Assembly (NCBI GenBank): GCA_022824225.1
Contig: JAJEAH010000028.1
Coordinates: 65,766 to 129,765 of the forward strand
Reading direction: 5' to 3'
DNA: 64,000 bases
Origin: Chloroflexota bacterium
Lineage (GTDB): Bacteria; Chloroflexota; UBA11872; VXOZ01
In this document: positions 19,147 through 51,501 of the stretch, piece after piece
Position numbering within the stretch: position 1 is the stretch's first letter
Layout: each line of letters begins with the position of its first letter
Translations under genes and position numbers: made by a program
Notes under the pieces: generated by a model
Told to the model about the DNA's origin: nothing
The model's input: the letters and a program-made list of their open reading frames with translations, nothing else
The model's database searches: none

Positions 19147-19269
19147 TCCATTGACGCGGCGGAGTGCGCGCGCCCCGCGACTGCCAGCGGCGTGGCAACT
19201 CAATTCGTCACTCCTGTGGCAACCCAGTCGCCATTCCCTTAGCAACTGAGTCCGTCATTCCCGTGAAAA

Positions 19270-19430
19270 CGGGAATCCATCCTCTCCGTGTTTAGCGTGC
19301 CTGTGTGCTCTCTAGCATGGAGACGCAATCCTGCGTAGGGGCGGTTCGCGAACTGCCCCTACGCGGAATTTGCGATGGCAGGCATGGTTGCGCGTGGGAA
19401 CATTGGGGCGCGAACCGCCCCTACAGCGCG
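19270..19430. repeat. REP-like palindromic elements: the hairpin gtcattcccgtgaaaacgggaatc, and a 16-bp inverted repeat gtaggggcggttcgcg...cgcgaaccgcccctac
   Basis: Exact reverse-complement pairs. The same two hairpin families recur at 24775-24845, 26468-26492 and 30640-30690. Confidence 0.75.
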
Positions 19431-19533
19431 CAATGGACAAAAGCGCCCTGCCGCACGCTGTGATACGATACCGCAGGGCATAGTGCCAAATGCCTGGCAG
19501 TTCAAGCGGTGAAACGAAAGGTGGCGGCAAACT

Positions 19534-21348
19534 ATGGCTGCGAGCGCCAACGGACGATTTGAGGTCATTGCTGAGGGGCCGTTGCGGGTCGGGGAGACGG
19601 TGGCGTTGCAACTTCACTACACGCCGCCAAGCGGCGGACTGCACACCGGCGGCAACCTGTGGATCTTCTACGATATTCGTCAATTCGGCGACCGCAGGCA
19701 CGCGTTTGAGGCCTCAGGCGGCATCATCGTCAATGGTCCAGCGGGGACAGTCTGGGAGTCCGAGGCGCTCGTCAACGGCGGCACGGTGCGGACGTTCGAC
19801 GTTCACTCTCCGGCGCCTGAATTCCTCCACGCCGTGCACGTGAAGCTCGCAAAGGGCTCAGTGGCGGAAAACCAGAGTGTCGAGGTGCAATTACGCACTG
19901 TGGCCGAGGGCTTTCTGCTGCCGGTCAACGCCATCGACGCCTTTCGTTTCTGGCTGGTGGAAGACCCGCGGGGCGAACTCACGCTCTACCATCCCGACCG
20001 CGACAAGTACCACTACTTCCTGCCGCGCGAGGCGGAACTTTCAATACTGGAGAGCAACCCGCTCACCATCAGCGCCGCCGAGCCGGCCGCGCTGCAGGTG
20101 ACGACGCCGTCCTATTCATCGGGGCAGGCGCTGACACGGGTGGTCGTCACCGATAGATACGGCAATCCCGTTCGTGATGCGGCAGGGGCGGTCACCCTGC
20201 GTACCGGCAGCGGCGAGACAACTGCTGCGCTCAACTCATTCAGCACGGAAGACACAGTACCGGTGCAGGGCCCTGCCGATCGTGTAACGGCGGCGTATGG
20301 GGACATCGAGGCCGTGAGCAATCCGGTGCGGGTCGATGCGGATACGTCCCCGTATACCCTGTATTGGGGCGACCCCCACGGCATGCTCTTCAACCAGCGC
20401 CCCATTGTCGAGCACTTCGCCTGGGGCAAGGATGTGAACGACCTGGATTTTGCGGGCGGCCAGCTCTTCTCGTATAGCATTTGCATCGAGGAAATTTGGG
20501 ACGAACTGCAGGACGCGTGGCGGCAGTATGACTTGCCGGGCGAGTTCGTCGCGTTGCCGTCGGCGGAGTTCGCCACCGGGCCCGACGGCAGTCACCGTCA
20601 CGGCTTCTTCCCCAAGCCGGAGGGCGAGCCGCCGGTCTTCTGTGAAGACCGTCCCGCCGCCAACGATCCCAAGCTCCACGCGCGGTATCACCCCGACACC
20701 GTCTATTGCAACGACTATCAAGAATTCTACCGGGAGATGAAACGCCGGGGCGCGCTCATTCACGGCCACTTTCATACGCATTTCTACGTGCAGGAACACC
20801 TGGCTGAGATCTATCAGAAGCAGCAAACCGACGGGTTCACTGAGGAAGAGAAGATCAACCAGTTCTTGATGCGGGGCGTGAAGCTCGGCATCGTCAGCGG
20901 CAGCGATACCCACGACAACCGCCCCGCCAATCCCTACAAGGAACCGGGGCCGTCAGGGCCGGCGGGACTGACCGCCGTGTGGGCCGAACGGCTCGACCGG
21001 CCCACGCTCTTCGATGCGCTCTTCAACCGGCGCTGCTACGCCACCACCGGCGTGCGCATCATCGTGGACTTTCGTGTGAACGGCGCGTGGGTGGGATCAA
21101 CGGTGCAGGCCGATAGTTTCGCGTTCACGGCGGACGTGGTCGGCACGGCGGACATCGAGCAAATTGACCTGGTGGTGAACGGCGACACAGCCAGAAGTTA
21201 CACACCTGATCAACAGCACGTGCAATTGGAAGATGAGGTGCCGCTGCGGTTCTCTCCGGTCAGCGCCAATTACTGCTACCTCCGCGTGCGGCAGAGAGAC
21301 GGCAATCGCGCGTGGACGAGTCCAATCTGGCTGGAGCCTATGGCGTAG
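19534..21348 (+). CDS. PHP-like / DUF3604-family protein, paralog 2 (HxH degenerated to H-G-M; longer N-terminal beta domain)
   Basis: Shares YWGDPHGM, HGHFHTHFY, GIVSGSDTHDN, ATTGVRI, WTSPIWLE with paralog 1. About 75% identical to paralog 3. Confidence 0.65.
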   Translation: MAASANGRFEVIAEGPLRVGETVALQLHYTPPSGGLHTGGNLWIFYDIRQFGDRRHAFEASGGIIVNGPAGTVWESEALVNGGTVRTFDVHSPAPEFLHAVHVKLAKGSVAENQSVEVQLRTVAEGFLLPVNAIDAFRFWLVEDPRGELTLYHPDRDKYHYFLPREAELSILESNPLTISAAEPAALQVTTPSYSSGQALTRVVVTDRYGNPVRDAAGAVTLRTGSGETTAALNSFSTEDTVPVQGPADRVTAAYGDIEAVSNPVRVDADTSPYTLYWGDPHGMLFNQRPIVEHFAWGKDVNDLDFAGGQLFSYSICIEEIWDELQDAWRQYDLPGEFVALPSAEFATGPDGSHRHGFFPKPEGEPPVFCEDRPAANDPKLHARYHPDTVYCNDYQEFYREMKRRGALIHGHFHTHFYVQEHLAEIYQKQQTDGFTEEEKINQFLMRGVKLGIVSGSDTHDNRPANPYKEPGPSGPAGLTAVWAERLDRPTLFDALFNRRCYATTGVRIIVDFRVNGAWVGSTVQADSFAFTADVVGTADIEQIDLVVNGDTARSYTPDQQHVQLEDEVPLRFSPVSANYCYLRVRQRDGNRAWTSPIWLEPMA

Positions 21349-21486
21349 TCGAGTCCAATTGAGCTGAGGACACCTGCCGTGTTTTCCCGTGCGCGGACTG
21401 CCAAGAGGCATATTGTGCTCCGAGTCCTAAGTACAGTGGGACTGTATACTGGTCGCGTCTAGCTGTAGAGCCGAGGAGCATTGGCC

Positions 21487-23304
21487 ATGTCCGCGGAAGT
21501 CAATGGGCGTTTCTGGGTCAGTGTAGAAGGCCCGTTGCGCGTTGCTGAAACGGTCACGTTGGAGTTGCACTACATGCCCCCGGCAGGCGGCCTGCAGACG
21601 GGGGGAAATCTCTGGTTCTGCTTCGACATTCGCCAGCTTGACGAGTGGGTGCTCGACTTTGACCGGCCGGACGCCATTGCCGTGCAAGGTCCGGCGGAGA
21701 CGGTCTGGGAAGCCGAGGCGCTCATCGATGGCGGCGTGGTGCGGACGTTCGATATCCATGCGCCCGTGCCGGAATTTCTGCACGTGGTGCACGTGAAGTG
21801 CGTGGCCGGCGCAGTGACGGCGGCGGAGCGAGTTACGGTGCAACTGCGCACGGCTCCCGGCGGCTTCCTGCTTCCCCGCAACGCCATCGATGCTTTCCGT
21901 TTCTGGCTGGTCGAGGACCCGTCTGGCGAGCTTACTTTCTACCACCCGGAACGGGACAAGCACCACTACTTTCTGCCGCGTGACGCGGAACTCTCCTTGC
22001 TGGAGAGCAATCCGCTCGCAATCAAAGAGGCCGAACCGGCGGCGCTGCAGGTAACCTCGCCGTCTCACGCCGCGGGGCACGCGGCCACACGCGTCGTCGT
22101 CACCGATCGGTTTGGCAATCCCGTGCGCGCTGCCCAGGGCGAGGTGACGCTGCGTTCCGGCAATGGCGAGACAACGGTTGCGCTCAGTTCGTTTAGCGCC
22201 GCAGGGACCGTACCCATGCGGGGGCCCGTAGACCGCGTCACGGCGTCGTACCGGGGCGTCGAAGCCGAAAGCAACCCGGTGCGGGTGGATGAAGAATTGC
22301 CTTGCCTGTCGCTCTATTGGGGCGACCTCCACGGCATGCTCTTCAGCCAACGGCCCATCGAGGATCACTTCGCCTGGGGCAAGGACGTGAACGGTCTTGA
22401 CTTTGCCGGCGGCCAGTTGTTTTCCTACAGCATTTCCATTGCGGAAACGTGGGAGAAACTCCAGAACGCGTGGCAGCGCTATGACTTGCCCGGGGAGTTC
22501 ATTGCGCTGCCCTCGGCGGAGTTCGGCACCACCCCCGACGGCAGTCACCGTCATGCGTTCTTTCCGGAGATTGCGGGACAGCCGCCGGTCTTTTGCGAAG
22601 ATCGACCCGCGGCGCACGATCCCAAATTGCAGGCGCGCTTTCATCCCGATACGGTCTTCTGCAAAGACTACCAGGAGTTCTACCGCGAAATGAAGCGCCG
22701 GGGCGCCCTGATGCACGGTCATTTCCATACGCACTTCTACGTCCAAGAACACCTGGCGGAGATCTTTCAGAAGCAGAGAACGGACGGTGAGGTGGAAGAG
22801 GAGAAGATCAACCAGTACCTGATGCAGGGCGCGAGGCTTGGCTTCGTGAGCGGGAGCGACACCCACGACAGCCGTCCTGCCAATCCCTACCGCGAACCGG
22901 GGCCGCTGACCGGTGTGGCGGGACTTACCGGCGTGTGGGCGGAACGGCTGGACAAACCATCCCTCTTCGACGCGCTCTTCAACCGGCGCTGCTACGCGAC
23001 AAGCGGCGTGCGCATGATCGTCGACTTTCGCGTGAACGACGATTGGATGGGTTCCACGGTGCAAGGCGAACGATTCACGTTTACGGCGGACGTGGTCGGC
23101 ACGGCGGAGATCGAGCGCATCGACCTGGTAGTGAACGGCGATACGGCCCGAAGCTATGCGCCCAGGCAACAACACGCGCATGTGGAAGATGAGGTGCCGC
23201 TGCGGTTTTCGCCCAAGAACGTCCACTATTGCTACCTGCGCGTGCGGCAAGTAGACGGCAATCGCGCGTGGACGAGCCCAGTCTGGTTGGAGCCACATTC
23301 ATAG
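21487..23304 (+). CDS. PHP-like / DUF3604-family protein, paralog 3 (recent tandem duplicate of paralog 2)
   Basis: MSAEVNGRFWV... aligns with paralog 2 (MAASANGRFEV...). A GAGGAG ribosome-binding site lies 8 nt upstream of this ATG. Motifs YWGDLHGM, HGHFHTHFY, GFVSGSDTHDS. Confidence 0.65.
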   Translation: MSAEVNGRFWVSVEGPLRVAETVTLELHYMPPAGGLQTGGNLWFCFDIRQLDEWVLDFDRPDAIAVQGPAETVWEAEALIDGGVVRTFDIHAPVPEFLHVVHVKCVAGAVTAAERVTVQLRTAPGGFLLPRNAIDAFRFWLVEDPSGELTFYHPERDKHHYFLPRDAELSLLESNPLAIKEAEPAALQVTSPSHAAGHAATRVVVTDRFGNPVRAAQGEVTLRSGNGETTVALSSFSAAGTVPMRGPVDRVTASYRGVEAESNPVRVDEELPCLSLYWGDLHGMLFSQRPIEDHFAWGKDVNGLDFAGGQLFSYSISIAETWEKLQNAWQRYDLPGEFIALPSAEFGTTPDGSHRHAFFPEIAGQPPVFCEDRPAAHDPKLQARFHPDTVFCKDYQEFYREMKRRGALMHGHFHTHFYVQEHLAEIFQKQRTDGEVEEEKINQYLMQGARLGFVSGSDTHDSRPANPYREPGPLTGVAGLTGVWAERLDKPSLFDALFNRRCYATSGVRMIVDFRVNDDWMGSTVQGERFTFTADVVGTAEIERIDLVVNGDTARSYAPRQQHAHVEDEVPLRFSPKNVHYCYLRVRQVDGNRAWTSPVWLEPHS

Positions 23305-23574
23305 GCACGACGCGATGGGTCCCTTCATGGTTCGGCTAGGGCTTTACTAGGCCCACTCAGCACGAACAAATATGGGCAAGGTCAATACGGGTAAATTTGC
23401 AACAGACTGGGCAAGAACGGAATTCGAAAGGCTGACAACGAACGCGAAGAGCGCTTGGGCAGTATGGGCCGCTCCGTTTGCCCCCGCATCGGAGTACGGG
23501 GCAGGCTCTGAGCTTGCCGAATGGTGAGCTTCCGAAGGCAAGCCTTCATCGAAGTTGTTTTGGCTAGGTAGTCA

Positions 23575-24684
23575 ATGGCTGACTTTGCACGCATAACACA
23601 GTCCATGGCAGAGCAGCGACTGGATGCCCTGGTTACGCTCGGCATGCGGAACTGCGCCTATCTGGCCGGCGCCATCAGCGAGGGGCCGTGGCTCAACGAG
23701 CCGCAGGGGCTCGCGCCCTGGATGACGTGTCTCATTCCGCCGGACCGGTCATTCACGTTTGGCGGCGGGTTACGAGACACGGACATGCCGGCAGACGGGA
23801 TTTCTCCCGATCATACCCGCGCGGCGCGGCTGACGGCGCTGGCAGCGGAGATGCGGCAGCGAGGCGTCGGCAAGGCGCGTGTCGGGGTTGACATGGATTT
23901 TGCCTCGGCGAGCGATCTGCGGAGGCTTGAAGAACTCTTGCCGGATGCTACGTTCGTTTTCGCCGACCTGCTGCTCGCACAAGCACGGGCGTGCAAGACG
24001 CCGCAAGAGCTACAGTGGCTCCGCAAGGCAATAGCCGCCTCCGAGTCTGGGTATCGAGAGATGCTGCGCGAGGTGCGCGTGGGCATTTCCTTTCAAGAGC
24101 TTGTGACCGTATGGGCAAAGGCGGTGCTGGACAACGGGGCCTTGCCCATCAATACTTCACCGGTCTCGTGGATGCTGCCCCACGGCGGCACGAGCCTGCG
24201 CGATCAGCCCGACGCAGTCGTGATTCGCAGTCCCGGCGTTGTGGAAGCGGGGTTGGTGTACCGCGTCGATCTCGCCGCGATCTCCGCCGGTTTCTTTTCC
24301 GATCAGAAGTTTAATTTCTGCGTGGGCGCGCCGCGCAAAGAGAGCTTGGCCGTCTGGCAGGCGCACCGGGAGCGGCAGCTTTTCATGGAAGACTTCGTGC
24401 GTCCGGGCAAGACGAAACGCGAGGTCTTCGAGGCCTGCCAGCGCGAGTTCAAAGACACTGATAAATATGCCTGGTGGATCCACGGCGTGGGCATGGACAA
24501 GCACGAGGAACCGCTGATCGGCAGTCTGCTGCCGTCCGCCGTTGACGTGCGGCCGGAGATCACCTTTGCGGTGAACAACGTGGTCTCGCTAGAGTCCTCG
24601 TGGCTCGAGGAGGACATGTACGTATTGAAGGAGGATGGACTCGAGCGGTTGGGGACAATTCCGCAGGAAGTGGCTATTGTGTGA
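23575..24684 (+). CDS. M24-family metallopeptidase (creatinase / Xaa-Pro peptidase-like; creatinase N-terminal domain plus pita-bread domain)
   Basis: The N-terminal region resembles the creatinase/prolidase N domain. The C-terminal region carries candidate metal ligands (VDLAAIS...SDQ, HGVGMDKHE, LESSWLEE). Confidence 0.7.
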   Translation: MADFARITQSMAEQRLDALVTLGMRNCAYLAGAISEGPWLNEPQGLAPWMTCLIPPDRSFTFGGGLRDTDMPADGISPDHTRAARLTALAAEMRQRGVGKARVGVDMDFASASDLRRLEELLPDATFVFADLLLAQARACKTPQELQWLRKAIAASESGYREMLREVRVGISFQELVTVWAKAVLDNGALPINTSPVSWMLPHGGTSLRDQPDAVVIRSPGVVEAGLVYRVDLAAISAGFFSDQKFNFCVGAPRKESLAVWQAHRERQLFMEDFVRPGKTKREVFEACQREFKDTDKYAWWIHGVGMDKHEEPLIGSLLPSAVDVRPEITFAVNNVVSLESSWLEEDMYVLKEDGLERLGTIPQEVAIV

Positions 24685-24699
24685 GTGTGAAGACTGGAT

Positions 24700-24950
24700 T
24701 CCGGTGCAGGCCGGATTCACCATGCCTCGCTAGACCACATACGAGAGATGAACATGGCGGCTAGCTTCCCAACTGTCACTCCGGCGAAAGCCGGAGTCTA
24801 GGGCGCACGGCGAAGATGGATTCCGGCTTTCGCCGGAATGACAGACTGGCTGCGGTTTATTCTTAGGTCGATCATCATGGTCTTGACGGTCACGCACGAG
24901 AATGTTTGCAGCGGACGCAAGTTGCAAACCTGCGCTACCGGAGCGAAACT
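24700..24950. repeat. Left copy of a ~200-bp repeat flanking the S8-like gene (gtcactccggcgaaagccggagtc ... ttgcaaacctgcgctaccggag)
   Basis: The same two motifs occur in the same order at 26467-26594. The second motif also occurs at 44575-44600. Confidence 0.7.
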
Positions 24951-25071
24951 GCCAAAACCGTCTATTTTTAGAGCAACGGCGCAGACGTTTGGGGGACGAA
25001 TGAGCCCGGAGTGGCGTATACGACTGGTATGACTCGTAGGTCTGGAATCACGTACGGGAAAGGAAAGACCG

Positions 25072-26415: not shown

Positions 26416-26464
26416 GTTTGTGAATAGCAAGGCGGTTCAGGGACTCAAAGCTAGTGGGCTCCGG

Positions 26465-26600
26465 TCCGTCACTCCGGCGAAAGCCGGAGTCCAGGGGGTG
26501 TGGGCTGCATGGACTGCTGTCCCGTATCGAGCGCGAGACCGTCTTTGCACAGCCTGATGGCGGCGGGCGCAGGCTGAAAACCTGCGCTACCGGAGTAACA
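26465..26600. repeat. Right copy of the repeat flanking the S8-like gene
   Basis: cgtcactccggcgaaagccggagtcc at 26467-26492; aaacctgcgctaccggag at 26577-26594. Confidence 0.7.
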
Positions 26601-26962
26601 CCGCCAATCCTGGCTATTCCCATGGTATTTGCAGATGCCAGGCAAATCGTTGACAGAGTTGGCAGAGAGTGCGCTAAGTTAGTTTGCATGCGCCCATAGC
26701 ACATGTCATTCCGAACGGAGCGCAGCGGAGTGAGGAATCTAGTGTGCTGGGGCCACAAACTGTGTAAGACACGGCACTAGATTCCGCGAATCCAGTTCGA
26801 CGCTGCGCTCGGAAAGGTATGTACCGTCAAGGCTAGCTGCTAGACTAGAGATCCTGTCAACGGATTGCTCAACATCTACAGTTATGACAGGGAGGATCGG
26901 CATAGCGCCTTCCTGCGTTGTGCTGGCAGAGAACAGGTACTTCAAAGGATGAATGAGGTTCT

Positions 26963-27982: not shown

Positions 27983-28122
27983 CGTTCGGCTCTCGGCTCG
28001 CGGGATTGTGTACCAGGGTCCTCGGTTAGAGGGCAGGCGCGCTAGATGGCCGGCAGCGACGGCTGCCGTGACATCCTGGCTCCTGGCTTCACGTCTTTCA
28101 ATGCCATGGAGGTGGTTGAGCA

Positions 28123-28986: not shown

Positions 28987-29221
28987 GTGTGCTTCACGCG
29001 ATGGGGAGTCGCGGGTAAGGAGACAGTTTGGGGTTCGCGCACCGTGGGCGTTGCATCCTACCGCGGACTGCTCAATCTCCGCAAGCGCTTCCCTAATCGG
29101 CAGTTCTTCTTAGGGAAGGAAACCTGCGGAAAGCCCTTCTGCCAAAGAGTGCGGTCAGTGAGTGGAGGCAAAGGGATGCAAGGACCGCCCTGCGGAAAGG
29201 GCTCCCGTTGACGCTCCGCTG

Positions 29222-30361: not shown

Positions 30362-30419
30362 GTCATGCCTCCACGTTCAGCGTGTTTCTGTATGGAGAAA
30401 CTGGCGGTTACGGACACAT

Positions 30420-30700
30420 AGCCTCTCGTGCCATGAGGCGGTGACAAGCCCCGCGCTACGGCAAGCAAGTGGCTGACACGTAAGACAGTAGCACAGGTTT
30501 GGAACCTGTGCCCACCGGACCGCAGGGGACAGCGGAGGCAAGGGCGGTCATGGAGAAAACGTCTTGTGCCCGGAGGCGGGGGACAAGCCCCCGCGCTACG
30601 GCAACCAGAAGGGGTCTTTCCGATGAGTGGTTGCGTATGGCCGGTAGGGGCGCTTCGCGAAGCGCCCCTACTTCGCGAAGCGCCCCTACATCTACAATAG
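30420..30700. repeat. Intergenic repeat cluster: two ~60-nt direct repeats ending gacaagcccc(c)gcgctacggcaa, plus a duplicated perfect palindrome aggggcgcttcgcgaagcgcccct
   Basis: atggagaaac...gacaagccccgcgctacggcaa at about 30395-30460 recurs at about 30540-30600. The palindrome occurs twice at 30640-30690. Confidence 0.75.
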
Positions 30701-31855: not shown

Positions 31856-32019
31856 GAGCGGTTTGCCTCCAAATCATCACACGTAATGAGAGCTTCTCCG
31901 GTGATTATATATCCACGCGGGGGCATAGGGAAAAAACACGGTCGAACACGCCGCCCCAGAATGGACGCCAGCCAAGCGATCGCCGTCCCGCAGGGAGCCG
32001 CACGGGGAATGCCGCGCCG

Positions 32020-33084
32020 CTAGCGGGTAAACAGGATGTAGAGCACGTCGCCGTCCTGTACCACGTAGTCTCGCCCTTCCTGGCGCACCAGGCCGCGCTT
32101 GCGAGCGTCACCGTAGCCGTTGCGCGCCACCAGTTGCTCCCAGGAAATCACCTCCGCTCGGGCAAAGCCCCGCGCCATGTCGGTGTGAATTTTTCCGGCG
32201 GCGTCCTGCGCCCGCGTGCCTTGCGGTATCGCCCAGGCGCGCACTTCTTCTTCATTGATGGTAAAGAAGTGGATGAGGCCCAGCAAGGCGTGGGACTCGC
32301 GCACCACCTGCGCCGCGCCGGGTTCCTCGATGCCGATGTCCTCGCGAAAGAGCGCAGCGTCAGCGGGCGGCAGTTCGGCGCACTCCATCTCCAACTGCCC
32401 GCAGAGACCGATGAAAGACGTTAGCGGGTGGGCATAGGCGGACCGCAGCCCGGACGCCAGAGCCGCCGCGCGCGGCAACTGTGCCTCTGAGAGATTGAGC
32501 GCTACCAACGTGGGCTTCAGCGTGAGCAACTGGAACCCGCGGACCGTCTGCTCTTCTTCCCGGCTCAAGTCCAGGGCCCGCACCGGCAGCCCTTGTTCCA
32601 GTCCCTCACGCAGGCGCGACAACAGCCCCTGTTCGTGTTCCAGGTGACGCCGTTCCACGGCGGGAGCGGTGCGCAACTGCGGTCCCAGCCGGGCCAGGCG
32701 GTTCTCGATGACCTGTAGATCGGGAAGCACAAGATCGAGGCGTATGCTCTCGAGTTCTTCTTCCGGGCTTTGGGTTTCATTGAAGGCGCCGAGCACGACG
32801 AGCAGGGCGTCCGCGGTGCGCAACGTGCCCACCCAGGCGGCTTCTTTTTCGCGTCTGCCAAAGCCGGCGCCGGGGAAGTCGAGATACTGGACTTCGGTGG
32901 GGATGCAGCGCTCGGTAGCAAACAGCGTACAGAGCGCCTCCAGACGCGGGTCGCGGAGGCTTACGGTGGCGAGCGTGGGCTCCAAGCCGTGGGACTCCTG
33001 CCGGTGCTCAGCCGCGCCGGCGGCTATGGCGTGGAAGACGGTGGTCTTGCCGGCAAACGGGAGACCGACGATGCCGATCTGCAT
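32020..33084 (-). CDS. ychF: Ribosome-binding ATPase YchF (Obg-family GTPase/ATPase with C-terminal TGS domain)
   Basis: Starts MQIGIVGLPFAGKTTVFHAI (P-loop) preceded by AGGAGCGG. C-terminal TGS-like domain (...GRDYVVQDGDVLYILF). The longer upstream ORF extension was rejected. Confidence 0.9.
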   Translation of the reverse strand: MQIGIVGLPFAGKTTVFHAIAAGAAEHRQESHGLEPTLATVSLRDPRLEALCTLFATERCIPTEVQYLDFPGAGFGRREKEAAWVGTLRTADALLVVLGAFNETQSPEEELESIRLDLVLPDLQVIENRLARLGPQLRTAPAVERRHLEHEQGLLSRLREGLEQGLPVRALDLSREEEQTVRGFQLLTLKPTLVALNLSEAQLPRAAALASGLRSAYAHPLTSFIGLCGQLEMECAELPPADAALFREDIGIEEPGAAQVVRESHALLGLIHFFTINEEEVRAWAIPQGTRAQDAAGKIHTDMARGFARAEVISWEQLVARNGYGDARKRGLVRQEGRDYVVQDGDVLYILFTR

Positions 33085-33484
33085 CGCTGCGCCGCTCCTA
33101 GCTGGTTGGCGGAACACTGACGGGGGCAACGGGGCCCACGCTCCCTCACCATAGCACACGCCATGCGCACAAGAGTTAGAGCGCCGGGAGAAGCGCGGTC
33201 ACTCTCTTACGCGGTCGCGAGGCCTGTTAGCGCACGGCCGCAGCCCGGCGCCTATGGGGCATTGTATGGCGCGTGCAATGAGGTGGCAATTCGATTTGTT
33301 CCTCCGGGCTGCCTGCGCTATCATCTCTGTAACGTTCGGGCAAGTCCGCGGCGCTATCGGCGTCTAGGGCTTGGCAGCCGATGGTTGGTAGCGGCCTGAA
33401 GCCGTCTATTGTAAATGAAAGACTACGAGCGCCCTCGCCGGATTGCGGCAGGCGTGTAAGAGGTACGGGAACGGAGGCGAGAGC

Positions 33485-34246: not shown

Positions 34247-34249
34247 GCA

Positions 34250-38061: not shown

Positions 38062-38094
38062 GGTGCTGCGCCATAGAGGCCCAGTTCTCTGATT

Positions 38095-38200
38095 TCCCAA
38101 CACTTGTGCCTGCCCAACACTTGCGTCCACCCTACTTCTCTAACCACCCTACATTTGTGCCCGCCCTACACTCGTGACCACCCTACACTATGTACCCGCC
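38095..38200. repeat. Degenerate 17-bp tandem repeat, about 6 copies (ccctacacttgtgccc-like), in a convergent intergenic region
   Basis: The units begin at 38095, 38112, 38129, 38146, 38163 and 38180. Confidence 0.7.
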
Positions 38201-38222
38201 CTACAAGAAGGGTGTTGACGAG

Positions 38223-38265
38223 CGTATCCGTTCGTCCTGAGCCTGTCGAAGGACGAACGGATACG
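38223..38265. repeat. Perfect 15-bp-stem hairpin (cgtatccgttcgtcc / ggacgaacggatacg). Belongs to the ttcgacaggctcag repeat family also seen at 55650 and 44400.
   Basis: Exact inverted repeat. The loop region gagcctgtcgaa is shared with the 55643-55776 tandem unit (reverse complement). Confidence 0.7.
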
Positions 38266-38395
38266 CGCGCTTGACACCCACATAGAGCCTGCTTACAGTC
38301 GTTGTTCCCCACGACCAACGTTCGTCCCCGTATCAAGCACGGGGCAGGCTCCTAGCCTGTCAAAGGATAAACGGATACGTTCGCTAGACACCTTC

Positions 38396-39712: not shown

Positions 39713-40105
39713 GGCATCCTCACTTCGCGACTGATTCATTCACGAACTCTACCCAAGCCTCTACTCAAGCAAAGTGCTTGACTATCACCATTATGCACGC
39801 CAATTTGCGGTAGTCAAGGAACAAGACCGGCTACGTGCGGCATTTCGCCTCAAAGAGTGGGGTTCGCGGGCGAGATTGCCGGCGGCGCAGAAATCTGCAA
39901 GCGCGGCACGGGAGTCTGTGGCCCGGCGCCGAAATCTTCGGCGCGGCGCCAGAATCTTCGGCGGGTTGAGCACTGGTGACAGGTCAGGGACTCAAAGCGG
40001 CGCCGCTTGCCGAAGGGGAGCTGTGGAGCGCGAGAGGGGCGCAGGTATACTCCTGTGCCCCTCTTGGCGAAGCGTGTGTTGCGCCGGTGCCATTGACAGG
40101 GAGGG

Positions 40106-41260
40106 CTAGGAAGCGGTTCGTCGCTGGCTCCACTGCCAGAGCATGAGGGCGCCAAAGCCCATAAGTGCCAGCGGCCAGGTGAAGTCCGACATGAATGAGG
40201 GTGTGATCGTATCGAATATGATGAGGCCGCCAAGGGCAACCATGGCCCCGCCGGTCCATGCGCGCCAGCGCGGACGCGGGACGAAACGGTTGCGCTGCAC
40301 CAGCAGCGCGAGGCCGATGCCCACCATGAAGAGGGCAACAACTGCCTCTTCCGGCAACCAGAAGAGGTTGAGGCTATCCGCCAGGGTGAGCAAGCTCAGC
40401 AGAATGAGGCCGCCGCCCAGCCACGTCCGCCACGCCTTGCGCGGCTCATCGCCGGTCCGATAGAAGAGCAGCAGAGCGCCCATCACCAGGAGTACGAAGG
40501 CCTCGGGAGAGAACCAAAGCCAGTCGACGTTGTCCGCCAAGACCGCGAGGCCCACGGCAATCAGTCCTACACCGAGAAACAACAGCCACCGGGGACTGGC
40601 ATTGGACTTGGCTTTGGGCGCAACGGTCTCCTGCTCTTGTTCATCCGCCAGGTCTTCATCGCTAATGCCCAGGATTTCATTCTCCAGGGCCTGCTCTTGC
40701 GCGCGCTTCGCGGCGGCGGGGTCAGTAGGCTGGGGTTCACGGTTGAAGGACTCGCGAACACGGCCGCCGATTCGTTCCACCACCGGATCAACACGATCGG
40801 CCACGTTCCGCAAGGTCTGGTCGGCCGCCGAGGACATCCGGCCGCTCTCCGGCATGACCAGCCAGAAAACCGGGTAGGCGATAAGCGTCAGCCCGCCGCT
40901 GATGAAGGTGGCAACCACCCATAGCACGCGCATGAGGGTGACGTCCATGCCAACGTATTCCGCCAGGCCGCCGCACACGCCGGCCAGCATGCGTTCGGCG
41001 CGGCTGCGGACGAGGCGGCTGCCGGCGGCATAGTCTGCCGCTTGGGACCGCTCCGGGCCTTCCGGCATGACAATCCACAACACAATGTAGGCAAAGAGCG
41101 CCATGCCGCCGGAGAAGAAGAGGGCGAGCACCCACAGCAGGCGAACAATCGTGGGGTCCCATTCGACGTATTCGGCTAGCCCGGCGCAGACCCCGGCGCA
41201 GGTGCGATCAGTACGGCTTCGCAGCAGACGCCGCACGGTTGGTTCAACGCTCTCTGCCAT
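40106..41260 (-). CDS. PspC-domain membrane protein with two tandem PspC domains and a C-terminal multi-TM region
   Basis: Two copies of the pattern R..RS..DR.LAGVCGGLAEY...D.T.vR.LWV...F.SGG..L.AY...W..MPE. Confidence 0.8.
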   Translation of the reverse strand: MAESVEPTVRRLLRSRTDRTCAGVCAGLAEYVEWDPTIVRLLWVLALFFSGGMALFAYIVLWIVMPEGPERSQAADYAAGSRLVRSRAERMLAGVCGGLAEYVGMDVTLMRVLWVVATFISGGLTLIAYPVFWLVMPESGRMSSAADQTLRNVADRVDPVVERIGGRVRESFNREPQPTDPAAAKRAQEQALENEILGISDEDLADEQEQETVAPKAKSNASPRWLLFLGVGLIAVGLAVLADNVDWLWFSPEAFVLLVMGALLLFYRTGDEPRKAWRTWLGGGLILLSLLTLADSLNLFWLPEEAVVALFMVGIGLALLVQRNRFVPRPRWRAWTGGAMVALGGLIIFDTITPSFMSDFTWPLALMGFGALMLWQWSQRRTAS

Positions 41261-41533
41261 CGCTCACTCCTCCTCGTGGCGGACAAGTGTAAACATGCTC
41301 TTTAGAATTATAGAACTTGAATTCGGATTTCGTCAAGTATTCTTAACCAGAAAATTGCAGAATACGGCCATTTTGCAGCGTTAGCGCATAGTGAGAGAGC
41401 TATGTGCGGAGCGAGGACCGTCCCAGGAAGCGGCGGACGAAGGCCTGGAAACGCGACTTCAGCCCGGTGGCGGGGATTCAGGAACGCCATCTGACGCGCT
41501 CAACCGGACGTTCACCCGCGCGCCGGCGCTTGT

Positions 41534-42463
41534 CTAGCCGCCGGCGGCGTCGTTTGCCGCGTCATTGCTCGTCTCGCCGAACAAGAGGCGCGCCTCCGCG
41601 AGAATCACCCGTACAGATTCAAGTTGCCGCTGAGGCAACGGCGTGAGGGGATGGCGAGGTTCGCCGCCGTGGAAACCGCAAAGGGCCATGGCCGCCTTCA
41701 AACCGGCGATTCCAAAACGAGTGGTAACGGCGGCGTTGGGCGCCATCAGCCGGTATTGAAGCGCCTGCGCTTCGGCCAGCGTGCCTTGTTGGTAGAGATT
41801 GAAGAGACTGACGCACGCTCTGGGCGCGACGTTGGCCAGCGCGGCGACACCCCCCGCGGCCCCCACGCAGAGCGACGTAAAGAGGAAGCTGGCCGAACCC
41901 GCCAGCACGGCGAAATCCTGCTGCCGCGTCTGCCGGATGATGTCCGTAATCTGCACGATGTTGCCGGAGCTGTCCTTCATGCCAATGACGCGGGGGTGTT
42001 CGGCCAGCGGCACGGCGACGTCGGGTCCGACGTTTACCCCGGTGTACGCCGGCATATTGTAGATGAGGATGGGCAACGCGGCCTGATCGGCAAGGACGGT
42101 AAAGAACTCCCGGTGGACGGCCGGCGTGAGCGCCGACTTGTAGTAGGCGGGCGGCAGGACCAGCGCGGCCTGGGCGCCGCACCCGGCGGCTTGTTCGATG
42201 AAGGCCAGCGCCTGCCTCGTCGACTCATACGCAACCCCCGCAATGATCTCCGCTCCCGCGGGCGCGTTCGCCGCGACTGTCTCCACTACTTGCAGTTTTT
42301 CCGTTTCGGTAAGGGTGGGCAGTTCACCGTTGGAACCAAGCGCAACAAAGCCGGTCAGCCCCGCGGGGGCGAGCTTGCGCACGTTTGCTGCCAGCAGGTC
42401 GAGCGCGAGTTCTTGGTTGACAAAGGGCGTTGCCAGCGGGGGATAGACGCCGGTCAGTTGCAT
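41534..42463 (-). CDS. Dihydrodipicolinate synthase / N-acetylneuraminate lyase (DHDPS/NAL) family class I aldolase
   Basis: MQLTGVYPPLATPF... typical DHDPS-family N-terminus. GAGGAGAA ribosome-binding site before this ATG. Confidence 0.85.
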   Translation of the reverse strand: MQLTGVYPPLATPFVNQELALDLLAANVRKLAPAGLTGFVALGSNGELPTLTETEKLQVVETVAANAPAGAEIIAGVAYESTRQALAFIEQAAGCGAQAALVLPPAYYKSALTPAVHREFFTVLADQAALPILIYNMPAYTGVNVGPDVAVPLAEHPRVIGMKDSSGNIVQITDIIRQTRQQDFAVLAGSASFLFTSLCVGAAGGVAALANVAPRACVSLFNLYQQGTLAEAQALQYRLMAPNAAVTTRFGIAGLKAAMALCGFHGGEPRHPLTPLPQRQLESVRVILAEARLLFGETSNDAANDAAGG

Positions 42464-42730
42464 GAGCGTTCTCCTCGGAACTAGGGCATTCACCGGCTAG
42501 TATAAGTCGCTCCGCGCCGCGCGACAATGCCTAAGCAAGTTTGGCTTGGGTGGTAATTGCGGTCTTCAAGAGGCTGACGCGACGCGCATCCGGCGGTCGG
42601 CTCGGCAGGGCTCGGCAGTTTTCTCAATTAGCTTTTCCGGCGTACAATGGGCAGGTAGGCGGGCCCCGCCGGCAGCGCGGGGTGACCGCAACAGACAATT
42701 GCAGACTGATGGAAATGGGAGTGGGACGCC

Positions 42731-43768
42731 GTGACAGTGAGAATAGGGTTCATTGGGGCCGGCGGACGCACCGTACGCGAGATGCGGGACCTTGTCCATA
42801 TTCCGGCAGCGGAGATTGTAGCGCTCTGCGACATTGATGAACCACGGTGCGCGGCGGCAGTGGAGTCGGTGAATGGCGCTCTGCCGGAGAGGGCGAGTCC
42901 AATCCAACCGGGGCTCTTTTCCAATCACCGGGCGATGCTCGACGCGGTGGAATTGGACGCGGTCTACATTTCGCTGCCTCCGGTCGCGCACGGACAGATT
43001 GATCACGACGTGATCGCTGCCGGCATAGCGGTATTGATCGAGAAACCCCTCGCCATCGAACTTTCCGTGGCCAAGGAGATAGCGGCCCACATTGCGGAAA
43101 CTGGCGTGGTGCATGCCGTCGGCTACCAGCGGCGGTATTCCCCTTCCGTGGGGCAAACTCGCAAGTTGCTGGCAGGTAAGACGATTGGGATGGTGATGGC
43201 CGTACGCTGGGGCCCCCTGCCGCCCCTGCCGCGCTGGATCGTGCAGGAGCAGTCCGGCGGCATGCTCATCGACCAGCACACCCACGGCGTGGACTTGATG
43301 CGGTACTTCGTGGGTGAACCGGACACCATATACGCCGCCGCCGATACGGTCTTGCTTACTGACGTGCCGGGTCTGGACATATTTGACGTGAATGCCGCCA
43401 CGGTACGCTTCAAGAACCGCGCGGTGGGATTGATTGGCAACTCGCCCGCGGCCCACGCCGCCATACCGCCCAATGTTACGCACGCTCTCCACATTCTCGC
43501 CAAGGACCTCACCGTGATGGCAGGCTTCGACAGCACAACCTACTGGCGTCCCGGCCAGCCGCCGGAAACGATCACCTCCGACCAAGATTCAAACTTCCTG
43601 CTCAATCAAACATTCGTCAACGCGGTCGCTAACAACACTCAGGACGGCATCCTGTCGTCGTATGCTGATGCGCTGCGGTCGTTTGCGTTCACCTATGCCG
43701 CACAGAAGTCGGCGGAACTGCGGCGCGAGGTGCGTCTCACCGATAATCTTGAGGTGGCGCCCTTGTGA
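42731..43768 (+). CDS. Gfo/Idh/MocA-family NAD(P)-dependent oxidoreductase, paralog 1
   Basis: IGFIGAGGRTVREM Rossmann N-terminus with EKP motif. GTG start. Confidence 0.8.
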   Translation: MTVRIGFIGAGGRTVREMRDLVHIPAAEIVALCDIDEPRCAAAVESVNGALPERASPIQPGLFSNHRAMLDAVELDAVYISLPPVAHGQIDHDVIAAGIAVLIEKPLAIELSVAKEIAAHIAETGVVHAVGYQRRYSPSVGQTRKLLAGKTIGMVMAVRWGPLPPLPRWIVQEQSGGMLIDQHTHGVDLMRYFVGEPDTIYAAADTVLLTDVPGLDIFDVNAATVRFKNRAVGLIGNSPAAHAAIPPNVTHALHILAKDLTVMAGFDSTTYWRPGQPPETITSDQDSNFLLNQTFVNAVANNTQDGILSSYADALRSFAFTYAAQKSAELRREVRLTDNLEVAPL

Positions 43769-43789
43769 GAATCAGTACGCGGGCGGGCT

Positions 43790-44900
43790 GAAACGGCGCT
43801 CAGTAGCCGGGAGTTTGCGGAGGGGAGTCCGGAAGTGGCGCAGTGCGATTTCGGAGCCCCGCCAATTTCACAAGGTACGCCTGGGACAACTTGGGAGTGT
43901 CGTGACTCTACGTAGCGTTCGGACGTCACCCAAATGCTGTCGAGTTCGTGTAGCGCGGGGGCTTGTGCCTAATGCTGTCGCACTAAGTTTTTGCCTTGGT
44001 TTGCCATGGTAGTCTCTGTTGCTAAGGCGATTGAAACTCAGTTTCGCTGTCGTAGGGGCACGACAATTCGTGCCCACAACGACAGCTTGACAACCCAAGT
44101 GGCGACTGTCTATCGCTCGCTCTCGACTTCAATGCGACACCATTTGCGGCTTTTCCCCCGCCGGAGTTGTAGCAGTAAAGTAGCGCGGGGGCTTGTCCCC
44201 CGCCGAGGTTGATGAGGTGGAGTGCCGCGGGGGCTTGTCCTCAGTGCATTCGCATCAAAGTAGTTGGCTTCAGTCTTGTCCGATCGTGCTGAGCACTTCG
44301 GCCCTTCCACAAGCTCAGCGCAGGCAGGCTCAGCACAGGCTCTGTCGATGCGCAAACGGTGCGAAGCAGGCACAGAACCGACGATATCTTGCCTGAGCCG
44401 TTCACCCTTCGACTTGGCTCAGGGCGAACGGCTCAGGCGCAAGCTTCAATGCGACTCCATTGGGGTTTTCCCCCGCCAGAGCACGCGGAACTGCGACCAC
44501 GTGAGCATGACGCGGCGGGGCGTAGACCTTTCCACTGCTAGAAACGGGTGCACAAAGGGTTGACCGCATAGAAGACGCAGGTTGCAAACCTGCGCTACCC
44601 GACAGAGGATCTCCGCTGCCGGCCACATGACCTGCGTCGCCGGCTGCAATGCCTGCGTTACTGTCCCACTCCCAGCGTTTCCGGCTACATATCTTGCGCT
44701 ACCGGCTGTGTACGGTGATGTGAGCGCCCTGTCCCTTGCCAAAGTGGCGAAAGCAACAACATTGGGTAGTAGTCAACCCCGCCTAACCCATCTCCAAGAG
44801 GGGAACCTTGCGTAACCATGTCCAGTGGGGCTATTCTTACTCCATCTCCTAGGGAGGGAAGGTCGGGGAGAGGTTTCTGCTTCTCCGGCTCTAACGGACT
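43790..44900. repeat. 1.2-kb non-coding repeat-rich spacer between the tandem Gfo/Idh/MocA paralogs: three copies of tagcgcgggggcttgtc, two copies of a 38-nt element cttcaatgcgac.ccatt.g.ggttttcccccgcc.gag, and ttgcaaacctgcgctacc
   Basis: The motifs are located at about 43955, 44185, 44225 (the 18-mer); 44128 and 44445 (the 38-mer); and 44580. There is no ORF with recognisable homology. Confidence 0.6.
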
Positions 44901-44948
44901 AGAGATACGACACGACAGCGTGGCACGTTACGAAGGGAGCAAGACACC

Positions 44949-46768: not shown

Positions 46769-46796
46769 CGGCCACGCAAGGGGGCGCTCTCTGTCG

Positions 46797-46872
46797 CTCC
46801 CTCTTCTAGGCCGTTCGTGCTGAGTGGGCTTCGCGAAGCCCTTGTCGAAGTACAACGGCCTAGAAGAGGGAG
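46797..46872. terminator. Compound hairpin: 19-bp perfect inverted repeat enclosing the palindrome gggcttcgcgaagccc. Candidate bidirectional terminator between convergent genes.
   Basis: ctccctcttctaggccgtt ... aacggcctagaagagggag are exact reverse complements. Confidence 0.45.
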
Positions 46873-50698: not shown

Positions 50699-50701
50699 AT
50701 A

Positions 50702-51490: not shown

Positions 51491-51501
51491 GCTGATTTGG
51501 C

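What the first reader, a model, noticed from the sequence alone, without database searches (positions are those of the whole stretch)
19270..44900. Several families of dispersed palindromic (REP-like) intergenic repeats
At least four families recur:
(1) gtcattcc(g/c)g-[cgaaag/tgaaaa]-c(c/g)ggaatgac hairpins, at 19256-19282, 24775-24798, 24816-24846 and 26467-26492.
(2) gtaggggcg-loop-cgcccctac, at 19336-19363, 19407-19431 and 30634-30690 (twice).
(3) gacaagcccccgcgctac, at 30437, 30578, 43955, 44185 and 44225.
(4) ttcgacaggctcag / ttgcaaacctgcgctacc elements, at 24918, 26575, 38235, 44400, 44580 and 55650.

They occupy most of the longer intergenic regions, often between convergent or paralogous genes. 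They may drive the local duplications seen in this window (membrane protein, PHP-like, Gfo/Idh/MocA, permeases, GNAT, SBP).
Basis: seen in the sequence. Interest (0 to 1): 0.5.

Follow-up and report, generated by a model that had tools for sequence, protein, structure and literature searches.

The report
REP-type hairpin repeats in a Chloroflexota genome
The intergenic spacers of this Chloroflexota genome fragment hold several families of short hairpin repeats of the well-known REP kind, so the finding is real and classifiable but largely ordinary.

Summary
The repeats are real, far above chance and almost entirely intergenic. They sort into known kinds.

- **GTAG-tagged REPs.** Family 2 is a "double-foot" GTAG…CTAC palindrome.
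- **CGTC-tagged REP.** Family 1 is a textbook case: CGTC/TGTC tag, 8-bp stem, GAAA loop, CCA tail. It corresponds to dRS3/NTS, and all four copies fit the published Ssn-related-motif pattern.
- **Unfiled hairpin (F4a).** The other half of family 4 is CCGTTCG-NN-CTGAGCYTGTCGAAG-NN-TGAACGG. I found no Rfam family and no paper holding this motif.
There is a second CGTC-like family (F7, 26703-26815), plus extra copies of the other families.

All families recur, dispersed, in related Chloroflexota MAGs. In eight related loci a RAYT transposase gene has family-3-type REPs beside it, inverted on both sides in six. No RAYT or Ssn gene lies in the 72 kb available from this genome.

The idea that the repeats drove the local gene duplications has no support. 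This is a new member of a known kind and of modest interest.

The parts
19253..19279 (+). F1, a CGTC-tagged REP (SRM/NTS-like): CGTC-ATTCCCGT-GAAA-ACGGGAAT-CCA. It lies 107 nt after the stop of the DUF3604 gene 17485-19146.
   Evidence: Sequence. DNA fold -7.8 kcal/mol, z -3.9. Matches the published SRM pattern. Covariance model R2: 51 bits on the + strand against 13 on the - strand.
24774..24843 (.). F1 head-to-head dimer with tags outward, REPIN-like. TGTC-ACTCCGGC-GAAA-GCCGGAGT-CTA lies at 24774-24800 (+). Its inverted partner TGTC-ATTCCGGC-GAAA-GCCGGAAT-CCA lies at 24817-24843 (-).
   Evidence: Sequence. The pair folds into one long hairpin, -30.1 kcal/mol, z -9.3. Both copies match the SRM pattern.
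26467..26493 (+). F1 CGTC-tagged REP: CGTC-ACTCCGGC-GAAA-GCCGGAGT-CCA. It lies 52 nt after the stop of the S8 peptidase gene.
26703..26815 (.). F7, a second CGTC-like family. TGTCATTCCGAACGGAGCGCAGCGGAGTGAGGAATCTAG lies at 26703-26741 (+). A degenerate inverted partner lies at 26779-26815 (-).
   Evidence: Sequence. The relatives hold 44 copies of GTCATTCCGARCG, mostly as inverted pairs 80-150 nt apart.
19335..19362 (.). F2, a 'double-foot' GTAG REP: palindrome GTAGGGGCGGTTCGCGAACTGCCCCTAC.
   Evidence: Fold -16.5 kcal/mol, z -5.9.
19405..19424 (-). F2 single-foot copy: GTAG-GGGCGG-TTCG-CGCCCC, read on the - strand.
30644..30689 (.). F2 double-foot palindrome (30644-30671) plus a tandemly repeated half-site TTCGCGAAGCGCCCCTAC (30672-30689).
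   Evidence: Tandem Repeats Finder: period 18, 2.1 copies, 100% match. Fold -26.8 kcal/mol, z -7.5.
44046..44086 (+). Degenerate F2 variant (GTAGGGGCACGA-CAAT-TCGTGCCC) inside a copy-specific outer palindrome GCTGTCG...CGACAGC.
   Evidence: GTAGGGGCACGA... is the commonest F2 variant in the relatives.
30575..30599 (-). F3 GTAG REP: GTAG-C-GCGGGGG-CTTGT-CCCCCGC-C, read on the - strand.
   Evidence: The same sequence flanks RAYT genes in relatives.
30438..30459 (-). Degenerate F3 copy.
43950..43970 (+). F3 copy with a decayed 3' arm.
44180..44204 (+). Intact F3 GTAG REP.
44222..44240 (+). Degenerate F3 copy, with GTGC in place of GTAG.
24914..24941 (-). F4b GTAG REP: ccGGTAG-CGCAGGTT-TGC-AACtTGCG, read on the - strand.
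   Evidence: (families D19/D20).
26566..26593 (-). F4b GTAG REP, with two stem mismatches.
44574..44601 (-). Intact F4b GTAG REP: GGTAG-CGCAGGTT-TGC-AACCTGCG.
   Evidence: Fold -8.9 kcal/mol, z -3.8.
30488..30513 (+). F4b-like variant: GTAG-CACAGGTT-TGG-AACCTGTG-CCCAC, with a second foot whose complement is GTGG.
38219..38269 (+). Complete F4a hairpin: CCGTTCGTC-CTGAGCCTGTCGAAG-GACGAACGG, with 9 further copy-specific base pairs outside the conserved stem.
   Evidence: Fold -23.7 kcal/mol, z -8.5. Covariance model R1: 60 bits on + against 28 on -.
38326..38392 (+). F5/F4a composite: hairpin CCCCGTATCAAGCACGGGG, then CAGGCTC, then a decayed F4a motif.
23481..23521 (+). F5/F4a composite: CCCCCGCATCGGAGTACGGGGCAGGCT-CTGAGCTTGCCGAA.
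46796..46873 (+). F4a hairpin with 15 copy-specific outer pairs and a small palindrome GGGCTTCGCGAAGCCC nested in its loop.
   Evidence: Fold -31.3 kcal/mol, z -8.2.
46890..46938 (-). F5/F4a composite, 88% identical to 23481-23521.
44295..44340 (-). Nested or duplicated F4a variant: CTGAGCCTGCCTGCGCTGAGCTTGTGGAAGGGCCGAAG.
   Evidence: The same nested form recurs in relatives.
44391..44438 (-). Complete F4a hairpin with an extended stem.
   Evidence: Fold -22.1 kcal/mol, z -7.0. Covariance model R1: 49 bits.
55641..55777 (-). Tandem array, period 38 nt and 3.4 copies, of F4a half-units CCGTTCGCG-CTGAGCCTGTCGAAG-CGC.
   Evidence: (family D13).
43769..44948 (.). A 1.18-kb mosaic spacer between two Gfo/Idh/MocA paralogues, comparable to BIME or NIME clusters. 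It holds F3 (3 copies), F2 (1), F4a (2), F4b (1) and a further 45-nt direct repeat at 44120-44165 and 44437-44480.
   Evidence: It is not a decayed RAYT locus: tblastn found no RAYT remnant and there is no synteny.

Best explanation
The window comes from an uncultured Chloroflexota genome. Its spacers are colonised by several co-resident families of REP-type elements. These are 25-50-nt hairpin-forming repeats with an unpaired 5' tag that gives them a polarity.

**GTAG families (F3, F4b, double-foot F2).** These are canonical GT[AG]G-tagged REPs. They are non-autonomous. Their single-stranded hairpin plus tag is recognised, cut and rejoined by a REP-associated tyrosine (HUH-Y1) transposase (RAYT) encoded once per genome. 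That is how copies, inverted doublets and tandem clusters arise. This step is inferred from the family, and supported here for F3 by the gene arrangement in relatives.

**CGTC families (F1, and probably F7).** F1 is the CGTC-tagged REP, also known as dRS3/NTS or the Ssn-related motif. Its known partner is a small GIY-YIG site-specific single-strand DNA nuclease, Ssn. That partnership is inferred for this genome.

**F4a/F5.** These behave the same way: intergenic, in both orientations, as doublets, arrays and nested copies, with a strand-specific fold. No known tag or partner protein applies.

Any host-level effect, such as a 3' hairpin acting on mRNA or on recombination, is secondary and untested.
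For: **Shown**
- The motifs are enriched 8- to 36-fold over shuffles and 24 of 25 are intergenic.
- GTAG sits next to 7 of 66 hairpin flanks against 0.9 expected. CGTC plus TGTC sit next to 7 against 2.3 expected.
- F3 is GTAG, 1 nt, a 7-bp stem and a 5-nt loop. F4b is GTAG, an 8-bp stem and a 3-nt loop. Both fit the operational REP definition in PMC6006769.
- F2 fits the 'double foot' type described in the same paper.
- F1 fits the CGTC-1 description: 8-bp stem starting AT or AC, 4-nt loop, CCA tail, TGTC variants and head-to-head dimers (PMC3733652). All four copies match the published SRM pattern, giving 5 hits against 0.55 simulated.
- Stems covary. For F1, 98% of cells pair and 64 cells show double changes, against 23 in shuffles. 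For F4a, 92% pair, with 64 against 26.
- A 19-mer of F3 occurs in more than 119 8-kb blocks, almost all in Chloroflexota MAGs. Twelve blocks each are spread along two complete chromosomes.
- Those blocks also carry F1 (80 copies), F2, F4a (about 75), F4b and F7.
- Six full-length RAYTs pass the NCBIfam REP_Tyr_transpos cutoff at 84-95 bits against 80. The L049 copy passes when its in-frame stop is read as W. All fail the IS200 cutoff. The best solved-structure match is E. coli TnpA-REP, 4er8.
- F3-type REPs lie beside the RAYT at all eight loci read. In six they flank it inverted on both sides, GTAG outward; in L124 and L126 only the downstream copy was found. Stem changes between lineages are compensatory. 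At L130 only the same gene order was seen.
- An Ssn-like GIY-YIG gene immediately flanked by inverted F1 copies was seen in an unrelated contig, L279. This is the arrangement reported in PMC11893778.
Against: - No RAYT and no GIY-YIG/Ssn gene lies in the window, in the 7.9 kb beyond it, or (for Ssn) in 0.9 Mb of related loci. The partner proteins are therefore unproven for this genome.
- RAYTs for F2 and F4b were not found.
- Genome-wide copy number in the source genome is unknown.
- F4a/F5 have no GTAG or CGTC tag. Their most conserved part is the loop rather than the stem, which is atypical for REPs.
- Orientation relative to neighbouring genes is biased about 2:1 for F1 and F3. That bias could reflect either replication or transcription.
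Confidence: 0.82

Rival explanations
1. The hairpins are primarily RNA elements, such as 3'-end stabilisers or terminators selected at each gene, rather than mobile DNA.
For: - All four F1 copies lie 52-133 nt downstream of a stop codon.
- Many copies lie between convergent or co-directional genes.
- F4a keeps a G·T wobble in 33 of 36 copies, which means one strand is the folding strand.
Against: - No repeat coincides with a terminator-like site, none has a T-run, and terminator-like sites are not above the shuffle expectation.
- Both orientations relative to flanking genes are common. F4a is 24 sense against 18 antisense, with 10 copies in divergent spacers. F1 is 12 against 26.
- No Rfam family matches, even at E up to 1.
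- Near-identical sequences next to unrelated genes, tandem arrays and nested copies point to copying rather than independent selection.
- A strand-specific fold is equally expected for single-stranded DNA recognition.
Confidence: 0.1
2. The repeats are recombination substrates that produced the tandem gene duplications in the window.
For: The largest repeat cluster (43769-44948) lies between two Gfo/Idh/MocA paralogues. Repeats also lie left of the DUF3604 pair and right of it.
Against: - The paralogues are only 68-89% identical at DNA level, so the duplications are old.
- No pair has the same family in direct orientation at both ends and at the junction.
- The DUF3604 2/3 junction, the ABC-2 permease pairs and the SBP pair have no family member between them.
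- In relatives the same repeats sit beside ordinary single-copy genes.
Confidence: 0.05
3. The palindromes are operator sites of a transcription factor regulon.
For: They are palindromic, intergenic and recurrent upstream of some genes.
Against: - Density in relatives is about one copy per 10 kb per family. That extrapolates to hundreds of copies per 3.5-Mb genome (my extrapolation).
- They are mostly downstream of genes.
- They carry asymmetric tags and occur as tandem arrays and nested copies.
- F3 is associated with a transposase.
Confidence: 0.03

Closest known systems
GTAG-tagged REPs and REPtrons: E. coli REP/BIME with TnpA-REP, and Pseudomonas REPINs with RAYT
   Same: - A 5' GT[AG]G tag lies 0-2 nt from a 7-12-bp GC-rich stem with a short loop.
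- Copies are intergenic singletons, inverted doublets and clusters.
- Several families coexist in one genome.
- Relatives carry a single RAYT gene with its own REP family beside it, inverted on both sides at most loci. In four genomes the gene sits in the same neighbourhood (sulfatase, AP_endonuc_2, RAYT, GFO).
   Different: - The host is an uncultured Chloroflexota lineage, and the sequences are new.
- The only Chloroflexi case in PMC3733652 is Thermomicrobium roseum GTAG-23, which is clustered at a few loci. Here the copies are dispersed.
- No RAYT was seen in this genome's available 72 kb.
'Double-foot' REPs of RAYT subclass 2.4 (Quentin et al. 2018, PMC6006769)
   Same: F2 has GTAG at the 5' end and CTAC at the 3' end of one long perfect palindrome.
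   Different: - The cognate RAYT was not identified.
- Some copies lie inside longer copy-specific palindromes.
- Half-sites are tandemly amplified at 30653-30689, and possibly in the decayed 17-nt array at 38096-38205.
CGTC-tagged REPs: Neisseria dRS3/NTS, Rickettsia RPE-6, and Ssn-related motifs (SRM) with the GIY-YIG ssDNA nuclease Ssn
   Same: - F1 has a CGTC/TGTC tag, an ATTCC/ACTCC 8-bp stem, a 4-nt loop, a CCA tail and head-to-head dimers.
- It matches the SRM search pattern.
- The commonest sequence in the relatives, CGTCATTCCCGCGAAAGCGGGAATCCAT, differs from the Neisseria NTS consensus only at the last base.
   Different: - Chloroflexi is not among the five phyla listed for CGTC repeats in 2013.
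- No ssn gene was found in the DNA available.
- The tail is extended to CCATCTTC or CCAGGGG.
Neisseria NIMEs and E. coli BIMEs (mosaic intergenic clusters)
   Same: The stretches 43769-44948, 24774-24941 and 26467-26815 interleave different repeat families in a recurring order.
   Different: The component families differ from those of NIMEs and BIMEs. No IHF, gyrase or Pol I binding motifs were tested.

Membership tests
GTAG-tagged REP | A GT[AG]G tetranucleotide lies 0-2 nt 5' of the hairpin foot. | tested here: met
   F3 is GTAG plus 1 nt. F4b is GTAG plus 0 nt. F2 has GTAG at the foot on both ends. GTAG is enriched at hairpin flanks, 7 against 0.9 expected.
GTAG-tagged REP | A fully paired basal stem of 7-20 bp with a loop of 2-5 nt. 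| tested here: met
   F3 has a 7-bp stem and a 5-nt loop. F4b has 8 bp and 3 nt. F2 has 12 bp and 4 nt.
GTAG-tagged REP | [quoted passage not shown] | tested here: inconclusive
   This is met in the window (24 of 25 matches intergenic). It is also met in related complete chromosomes (more than 119 blocks). The rest of the source genome could not be read.
GTAG-tagged REP | A cognate RAYT gene flanked by inverted copies of the same REP (a REPtron). | tested here: inconclusive
   For F3 this is met in relatives. Loci L049, L122, L123, L125, L128 and L129 have inverted F3-type REPs on both sides; L124 and L126 show only a downstream copy. L130 shows only the same gene order; its REP flanks were not examined. 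No RAYT lies in the window plus 7.9 kb. F2 and F4b were not resolved.
CGTC-tagged REP / Ssn-related motif | A CGTC (or TGTC) tag, an 8-9-bp stem starting AT, a 4-5-nt loop and a CCA-type tail. | tested here: met
   All four window copies and 80 copies in relatives fit. The description is in PMC3733652.
CGTC-tagged REP / Ssn-related motif | Matches the published SRM pattern HGTCWYN(0-2)YYVSBRHN(0-5)WNVSBRGN(0-2)RNCYNB. | tested here: met
   All four F1 copies match. The window has 5 hits against 0.55 simulated, and the relatives have 75 against 10.
CGTC-tagged REP / Ssn-related motif | A cd10448 GIY-YIG (ssn) gene in the genome, typically flanked by the motif. | tested here: inconclusive
   None was found in the window or in 0.9 Mb of relatives. 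The arrangement was seen only in an unrelated contig, L279. The protein search saturated and returned no Chloroflexota names.
CGTC-tagged REP / Ssn-related motif | Strand-specific cleavage of the single-stranded motif by Ssn. | not testable with these tools
   This needs a biochemical assay.
Intrinsic terminators | A GC-rich hairpin followed by a T-run. | tested here: not met
   No family member appears among the terminator-like sites. The tails are CCATCTTC, CCAGGGG and similar.
Rfam structured RNA families | A match to a curated covariance model. | tested here: not met
   There are no matches at gathering score across the whole window. The only match at E up to 1 is a chance miRNA hit over the F1 dimer.

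The most novel reading that the evidence does not exclude
F4a/F5 may be a third superfamily of polar single-strand hairpin repeats, distinct from the GTAG and CGTC kinds, with its own still unknown nuclease or transposase.

Its features:
- A 5' CCGTTCG foot, two covarying pairs and an almost invariant 15-nt CTGAGCYTGTCGAAG loop.
- A conserved G·T wobble.
- Frequent copy-specific outer palindromes, plus nested and arrayed forms.

The outer palindromes would mean that it inserts into the centres of existing palindromes.

The motif is widespread. It occurs in more than 120 IMG/VR stretches spanning 42-72% GC. It has no Rfam model, and the motif strings occur in none of the searched papers.
Probability: 0.3. 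Interest if true: 0.55.

Novelty: new member of a known kind. Interest (0 to 1): 0.3.

Why it matters
It matters mainly for annotation. These repeats inflate intergenic length, break assemblies and generate spurious ORFs, so naming them cleans up Chloroflexota MAG annotation.

- The work extends the CGTC/SRM repeat class to Chloroflexota.
- It gives a clean REPtron example in that phylum: a RAYT in the same gene neighbourhood in four genomes, with co-varying REPs beside it in those examined.
- The co-residence of GTAG, CGTC and F4a families in one lineage offers a natural system to ask whether different single-strand nucleases partition hairpin repeats.
- The F4a family is a lead for a still unassigned partner protein.

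Tried and rejected
1. **Rfam.** Searches at gathering score and at E up to 1 found nothing relevant.
2. **RAYT in this genome.**
   - phmmer with probe sequences and tblastn with the L049 RAYT found no RAYT in the window or in L002.
   - Look-ups of RAYT homologues returned other samples only.
3. **Mosaic 43769-44948 as a decayed REPtron.** The neighbouring genes are of the same families as at the relatives' RAYT locus. I rejected the idea because they are only 22-28% identical paralogues and there is no RAYT remnant.
4. **A protein partner for F1 or F4a among recurrent neighbours.**
   - In Chloroflexota loci the recurrent neighbours are ordinary paralogue families: SDR, DegT, amidohydrolase, aminotransferase, ABC and DHDPS.
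   - In IMG/VR loci they look like phage structural genes such as portal and capsid, by my reading of the sequences, which reflects the collection searched.
   - A weak Y1 hit in L191 (E 8.5e-4) was not followed up.
5. **F4a as an SRM of a different Ssn clade.** The GIY-YIG gene in L215 is flanked by its own GTCAYCCCGGAC... motif, not by F4a.
6. **Ssn in Chloroflexota.** The last large protein search saturated at 7990 hits and gave no Chloroflexota names.
7. **Literature search for the F4a motif strings.** No paper holds them.
8. **Orientation relative to genes.** It shows only about 2:1 biases, which is not decisive between DNA-level and RNA-level roles.

Full report
**Source and context.** The window has 56-66% GC. 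Its YchF protein (32020-33159, minus strand) has unnamed relatives at 70-77% identity. The best named matches are Chloroflexota MAG proteins (Dehalococcoidia, Chloroflexia) at about 40%. An ENA metagenome scaffold (L002) is identical to window 50596-64000 and adds 7.9 kb beyond the right end. Genes around the repeats are ordinary metabolic genes, many in tandem paralogue pairs: DUF3604 (three copies), M24 and S8 peptidases, hydantoinase A and B, Gfo/Idh/MocA (two copies), GNAT, ABC-2 permeases and SBPs.

**Checking the observation.**
- Each is far above chance: GTAGGGGCG 5 against 0.66, the family-3 18-mer 5 against 0.14, and TTCGACAGGCTCAG 7 against 0.5.
- With tolerant patterns, 24 of 25 matches are intergenic, although only 22% of the window is intergenic.
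- Eight of the 13 spacers of at least 200 nt between 19.1 and 47.1 kb carry at least one member.
- Representative copies fold as single strands much better than their shuffles, with z-scores from -3 to -9; one degenerate copy (24911-24944) reaches only -1.6.

**Re-sorting the families.**
- Family 2 is a perfect palindrome with GTAG at one end and CTAC at the other.
- These three fit the working definition of canonical REPs: GT[AG]G 0-2 nt from a 7-20-bp stem with a 2-5-nt loop. Family 2 also fits the 'double foot' type (PMC6006769).
- GTAG lies beside 7 of the 66 flanks of perfect hairpins in the window, against 0.9 expected.
- Family 1 is CGTC or TGTC, an 8-bp stem starting AT or AC, a GAAA loop and a CCA or CTA tail, once as a head-to-head dimer (24774-24843). 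This is the description of CGTC-1 REPs in PMC3733652.
- The other half of family 4 (F4a) is unrelated to F4b. It is a hairpin CCGTTCG-NN-CTGAGCYTGTCGAAG-NN-TGAACGG.

- Almost all blocks come from Chloroflexota MAGs. They include complete 3.3-3.9-Mb chromosomes in which the blocks are spread from end to end.
- These blocks were chosen only for family 3, yet they also carry F1 (80 copies in 910 kb), F2, F4a (about 75), F4b and F7 (44).
- The whole repertoire is therefore a property of the lineage rather than of this window.
- Across copies the stems change in a compensatory way. F1 has 98% of cells paired and 64 double changes, against 23 in shuffles. F4a has 92% paired, with 64 against 26.
- All families avoid coding sequence. 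They occur in both orientations relative to neighbouring genes, with at most a 2:1 bias.

**The RAYT test.** One of the 119 blocks (L049) holds a 165-codon Y1-transposase gene with one in-frame TGA.
- It scores 93 bits on the NCBIfam REP-associated tyrosine transposase model, whose cutoff is 80. Its best solved relative is E. coli TnpA-REP, 4er8.
- A family-3 REP lies on each side, inverted, with GTAG outward.
- Intact homologues were found in other assemblies. Six pass the same cutoff and fail the IS200 cutoff.
- F3-type REPs lie beside the gene at every one of these loci. At L122, L123, L125 and L128 they flank it on both sides in the same arrangement; at L124 and L126 only the downstream copy was found.
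- The stems differ between lineages by compensatory changes (GCGGGGG, GCAGGGG, GGAAGGG), while the CTTGT loop is mostly kept (CTCGT or CTTGC in a few copies).
- Four loci (L049, L122, L123, L130) share the same neighbours: sulfatase, AP_endonuc_2 and GFO.
- This is a classical REPtron.
- No RAYT lies in the window or in the extra 7.9 kb.
- The 1.18-kb mosaic between the two GFO genes is not a decayed copy of that locus.

**The CGTC family.** The 2013 survey found no dedicated enzyme for CGTC repeats and did not list Chloroflexi among their hosts.
- A 2025 paper (PMC11893778) shows that the Neisseria version (dRS3/NTS, CGTCATTCCCGCGMAVGCGGGAATCYRG) is bound and cut, as single-stranded DNA only, by SsnA. 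SsnA is a 94-residue GIY-YIG nuclease whose gene is typically flanked by the motif.
- The same paper defines a degenerate 'SRM' pattern.
- All four F1 copies match that pattern. The window has 5 hits against 0.55 simulated, and the relatives have 75 against 10.
- In an unrelated IMG/VR contig (L279) I saw the reported arrangement: a GIY-YIG ORF with inverted F1 copies immediately on each side.
- I found no such gene in the window or in 0.9 Mb of related loci. The last large protein search saturated without Chloroflexota names.
- The Ssn link is therefore an inference for this genome.

**The F4a/F5 family.**
- Its most conserved part is the 15-nt loop.
- The two pairs next to the loop covary.
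- One pair is G·T in 33 of 36 copies, so only one strand folds well. The model scores 60 bits on one strand against 28 on the other.
- Sequences just outside the conserved stem are complementary in a copy-specific way. The mean is 4.1 extra pairs against 1.5 with swapped flanks, and the longest is 17. Window examples are 38219-38269 and 46796-46873.
- There are half-unit arrays (55641-55777), nested forms, and a variant with another 5' hairpin (F5).
- The motif occurs in more than 120 IMG/VR stretches spanning 42-72% GC. It has no Rfam model, and the motif strings occur in none of the searched papers.
- No associated gene emerged.
- Insertion into existing palindromes has a precedent in T. roseum GTAG-23 (PMC3733652), but it was not demonstrated here.

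**Rivals.**
- None of the repeats coincides with a terminator-like site or has a T-run. A pure terminator reading therefore fails.
- An added RNA-level role for sense-oriented copies cannot be excluded.
- The suggestion that the repeats caused the gene duplications has no support. The paralogues are 68-89% identical, several pairs have no repeat at the junction, and no pair has same-family direct repeats at its boundaries.

**Verdict.** This is a correct observation of ordinary but richly represented REP-type repeats. They are now assigned to the GTAG, double-foot and CGTC/SRM kinds, with a demonstrated REPtron in relatives. One widespread family (F4a) remains unassigned.

Noticed in passing
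window 38096-38205: A tandem array of 6.4 copies of a 17-nt unit, CCCTACACTTGTGCCCG, at 70% match. It lies just upstream of the F4a hairpin. Each unit ends in CCCTAC, the complement of GTAGGG. It looks like decayed tandem copies of an F2 half-site, as at 30653-30689.
   Followed up: partly
window 39882-39963 and 46968-47031: Two further short intergenic tandem arrays that belong to none of the families. One has a 20-nt unit GCGGCGCCGAAATCTGCGGC in 4.1 copies. The other has an 18-nt unit TGCCGCTGCTAGGGAGAC in 3.6 copies.
   Followed up: no
window 44120-44165 and 44437-44480: A direct repeat of about 45 nt, CTTCAATGCGACNCCATT...TTTTCCCCCGCCRGAG, inside the mosaic spacer. It may be another repeat family.
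   Followed up: no
window 12931-13485: Nested tandem repeats with periods of 12, 18, 36, 132 and 147 nt inside the ORF 12237-13556. The gene encodes a repetitive protein.
   Followed up: no
window 1-5820: A tandem duplication with an offset of about 3.86 kb. 1660-1959 matches 5512-5811 at 89%, and 1-300 matches 3871-4170 at 77%. The left copy runs off the window.
   Followed up: no
window 62381-62576 and 63349-63544: A 196-nt inverted repeat at 81% identity, near several long unique hairpins (62026-62056, 62875-62915, 63030-63067).
   Followed up: no
window 40033-40064, 57258-57287 and 58965-58998: Strong unique GC-rich hairpins downstream of genes, without T-runs. An example is CGGAGGGGCACGGCGCGCCGTGCCCCTCCG. 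They are not members of the repeat families.
   Followed up: no
L049 7371-7865 (-): The RAYT gene in this related genome has a single in-frame TGA (RQV*KLGE), where homologues have W. This is either a pseudogene or a long-read assembly error.
   Followed up: partly
L011, L015, L026, L032, L055, L059, L063: The exact family-3 19-mer also occurs in MAGs labelled Deltaproteobacteria, Anaeromyxobacteraceae, Poribacteria, Nitrospirae and LCP-89. The cause could be transfer, convergence or binning contamination.
   Followed up: no
L027 6357-7042; L082 2193-2426; L120 3032-3400: In relatives the repeats form tandem arrays. One is a 284-nt composite unit holding F2, F3 and F1, repeated three times. 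Another is six F3 copies at a 43-nt period. A third is three F1 copies at a 172-nt period.
   Followed up: partly
L279 2949-3377; L215 12019-12465: Small GIY-YIG (Ssn-like) genes in IMG/VR contigs are flanked by inverted hairpin repeats. In L279 the flanks are F1 itself. In L215 they are a variant, GTCAYCCCGGACTNGTTCCGGGRT.
   Followed up: partly
L123 2672-2706 and 3470-3500: Two F4a copies in inverted orientation bracket the whole REP-RAYT-REP cluster of this relative. They are absent from the syntenic locus L122, so this is probably coincidence.
   Followed up: no
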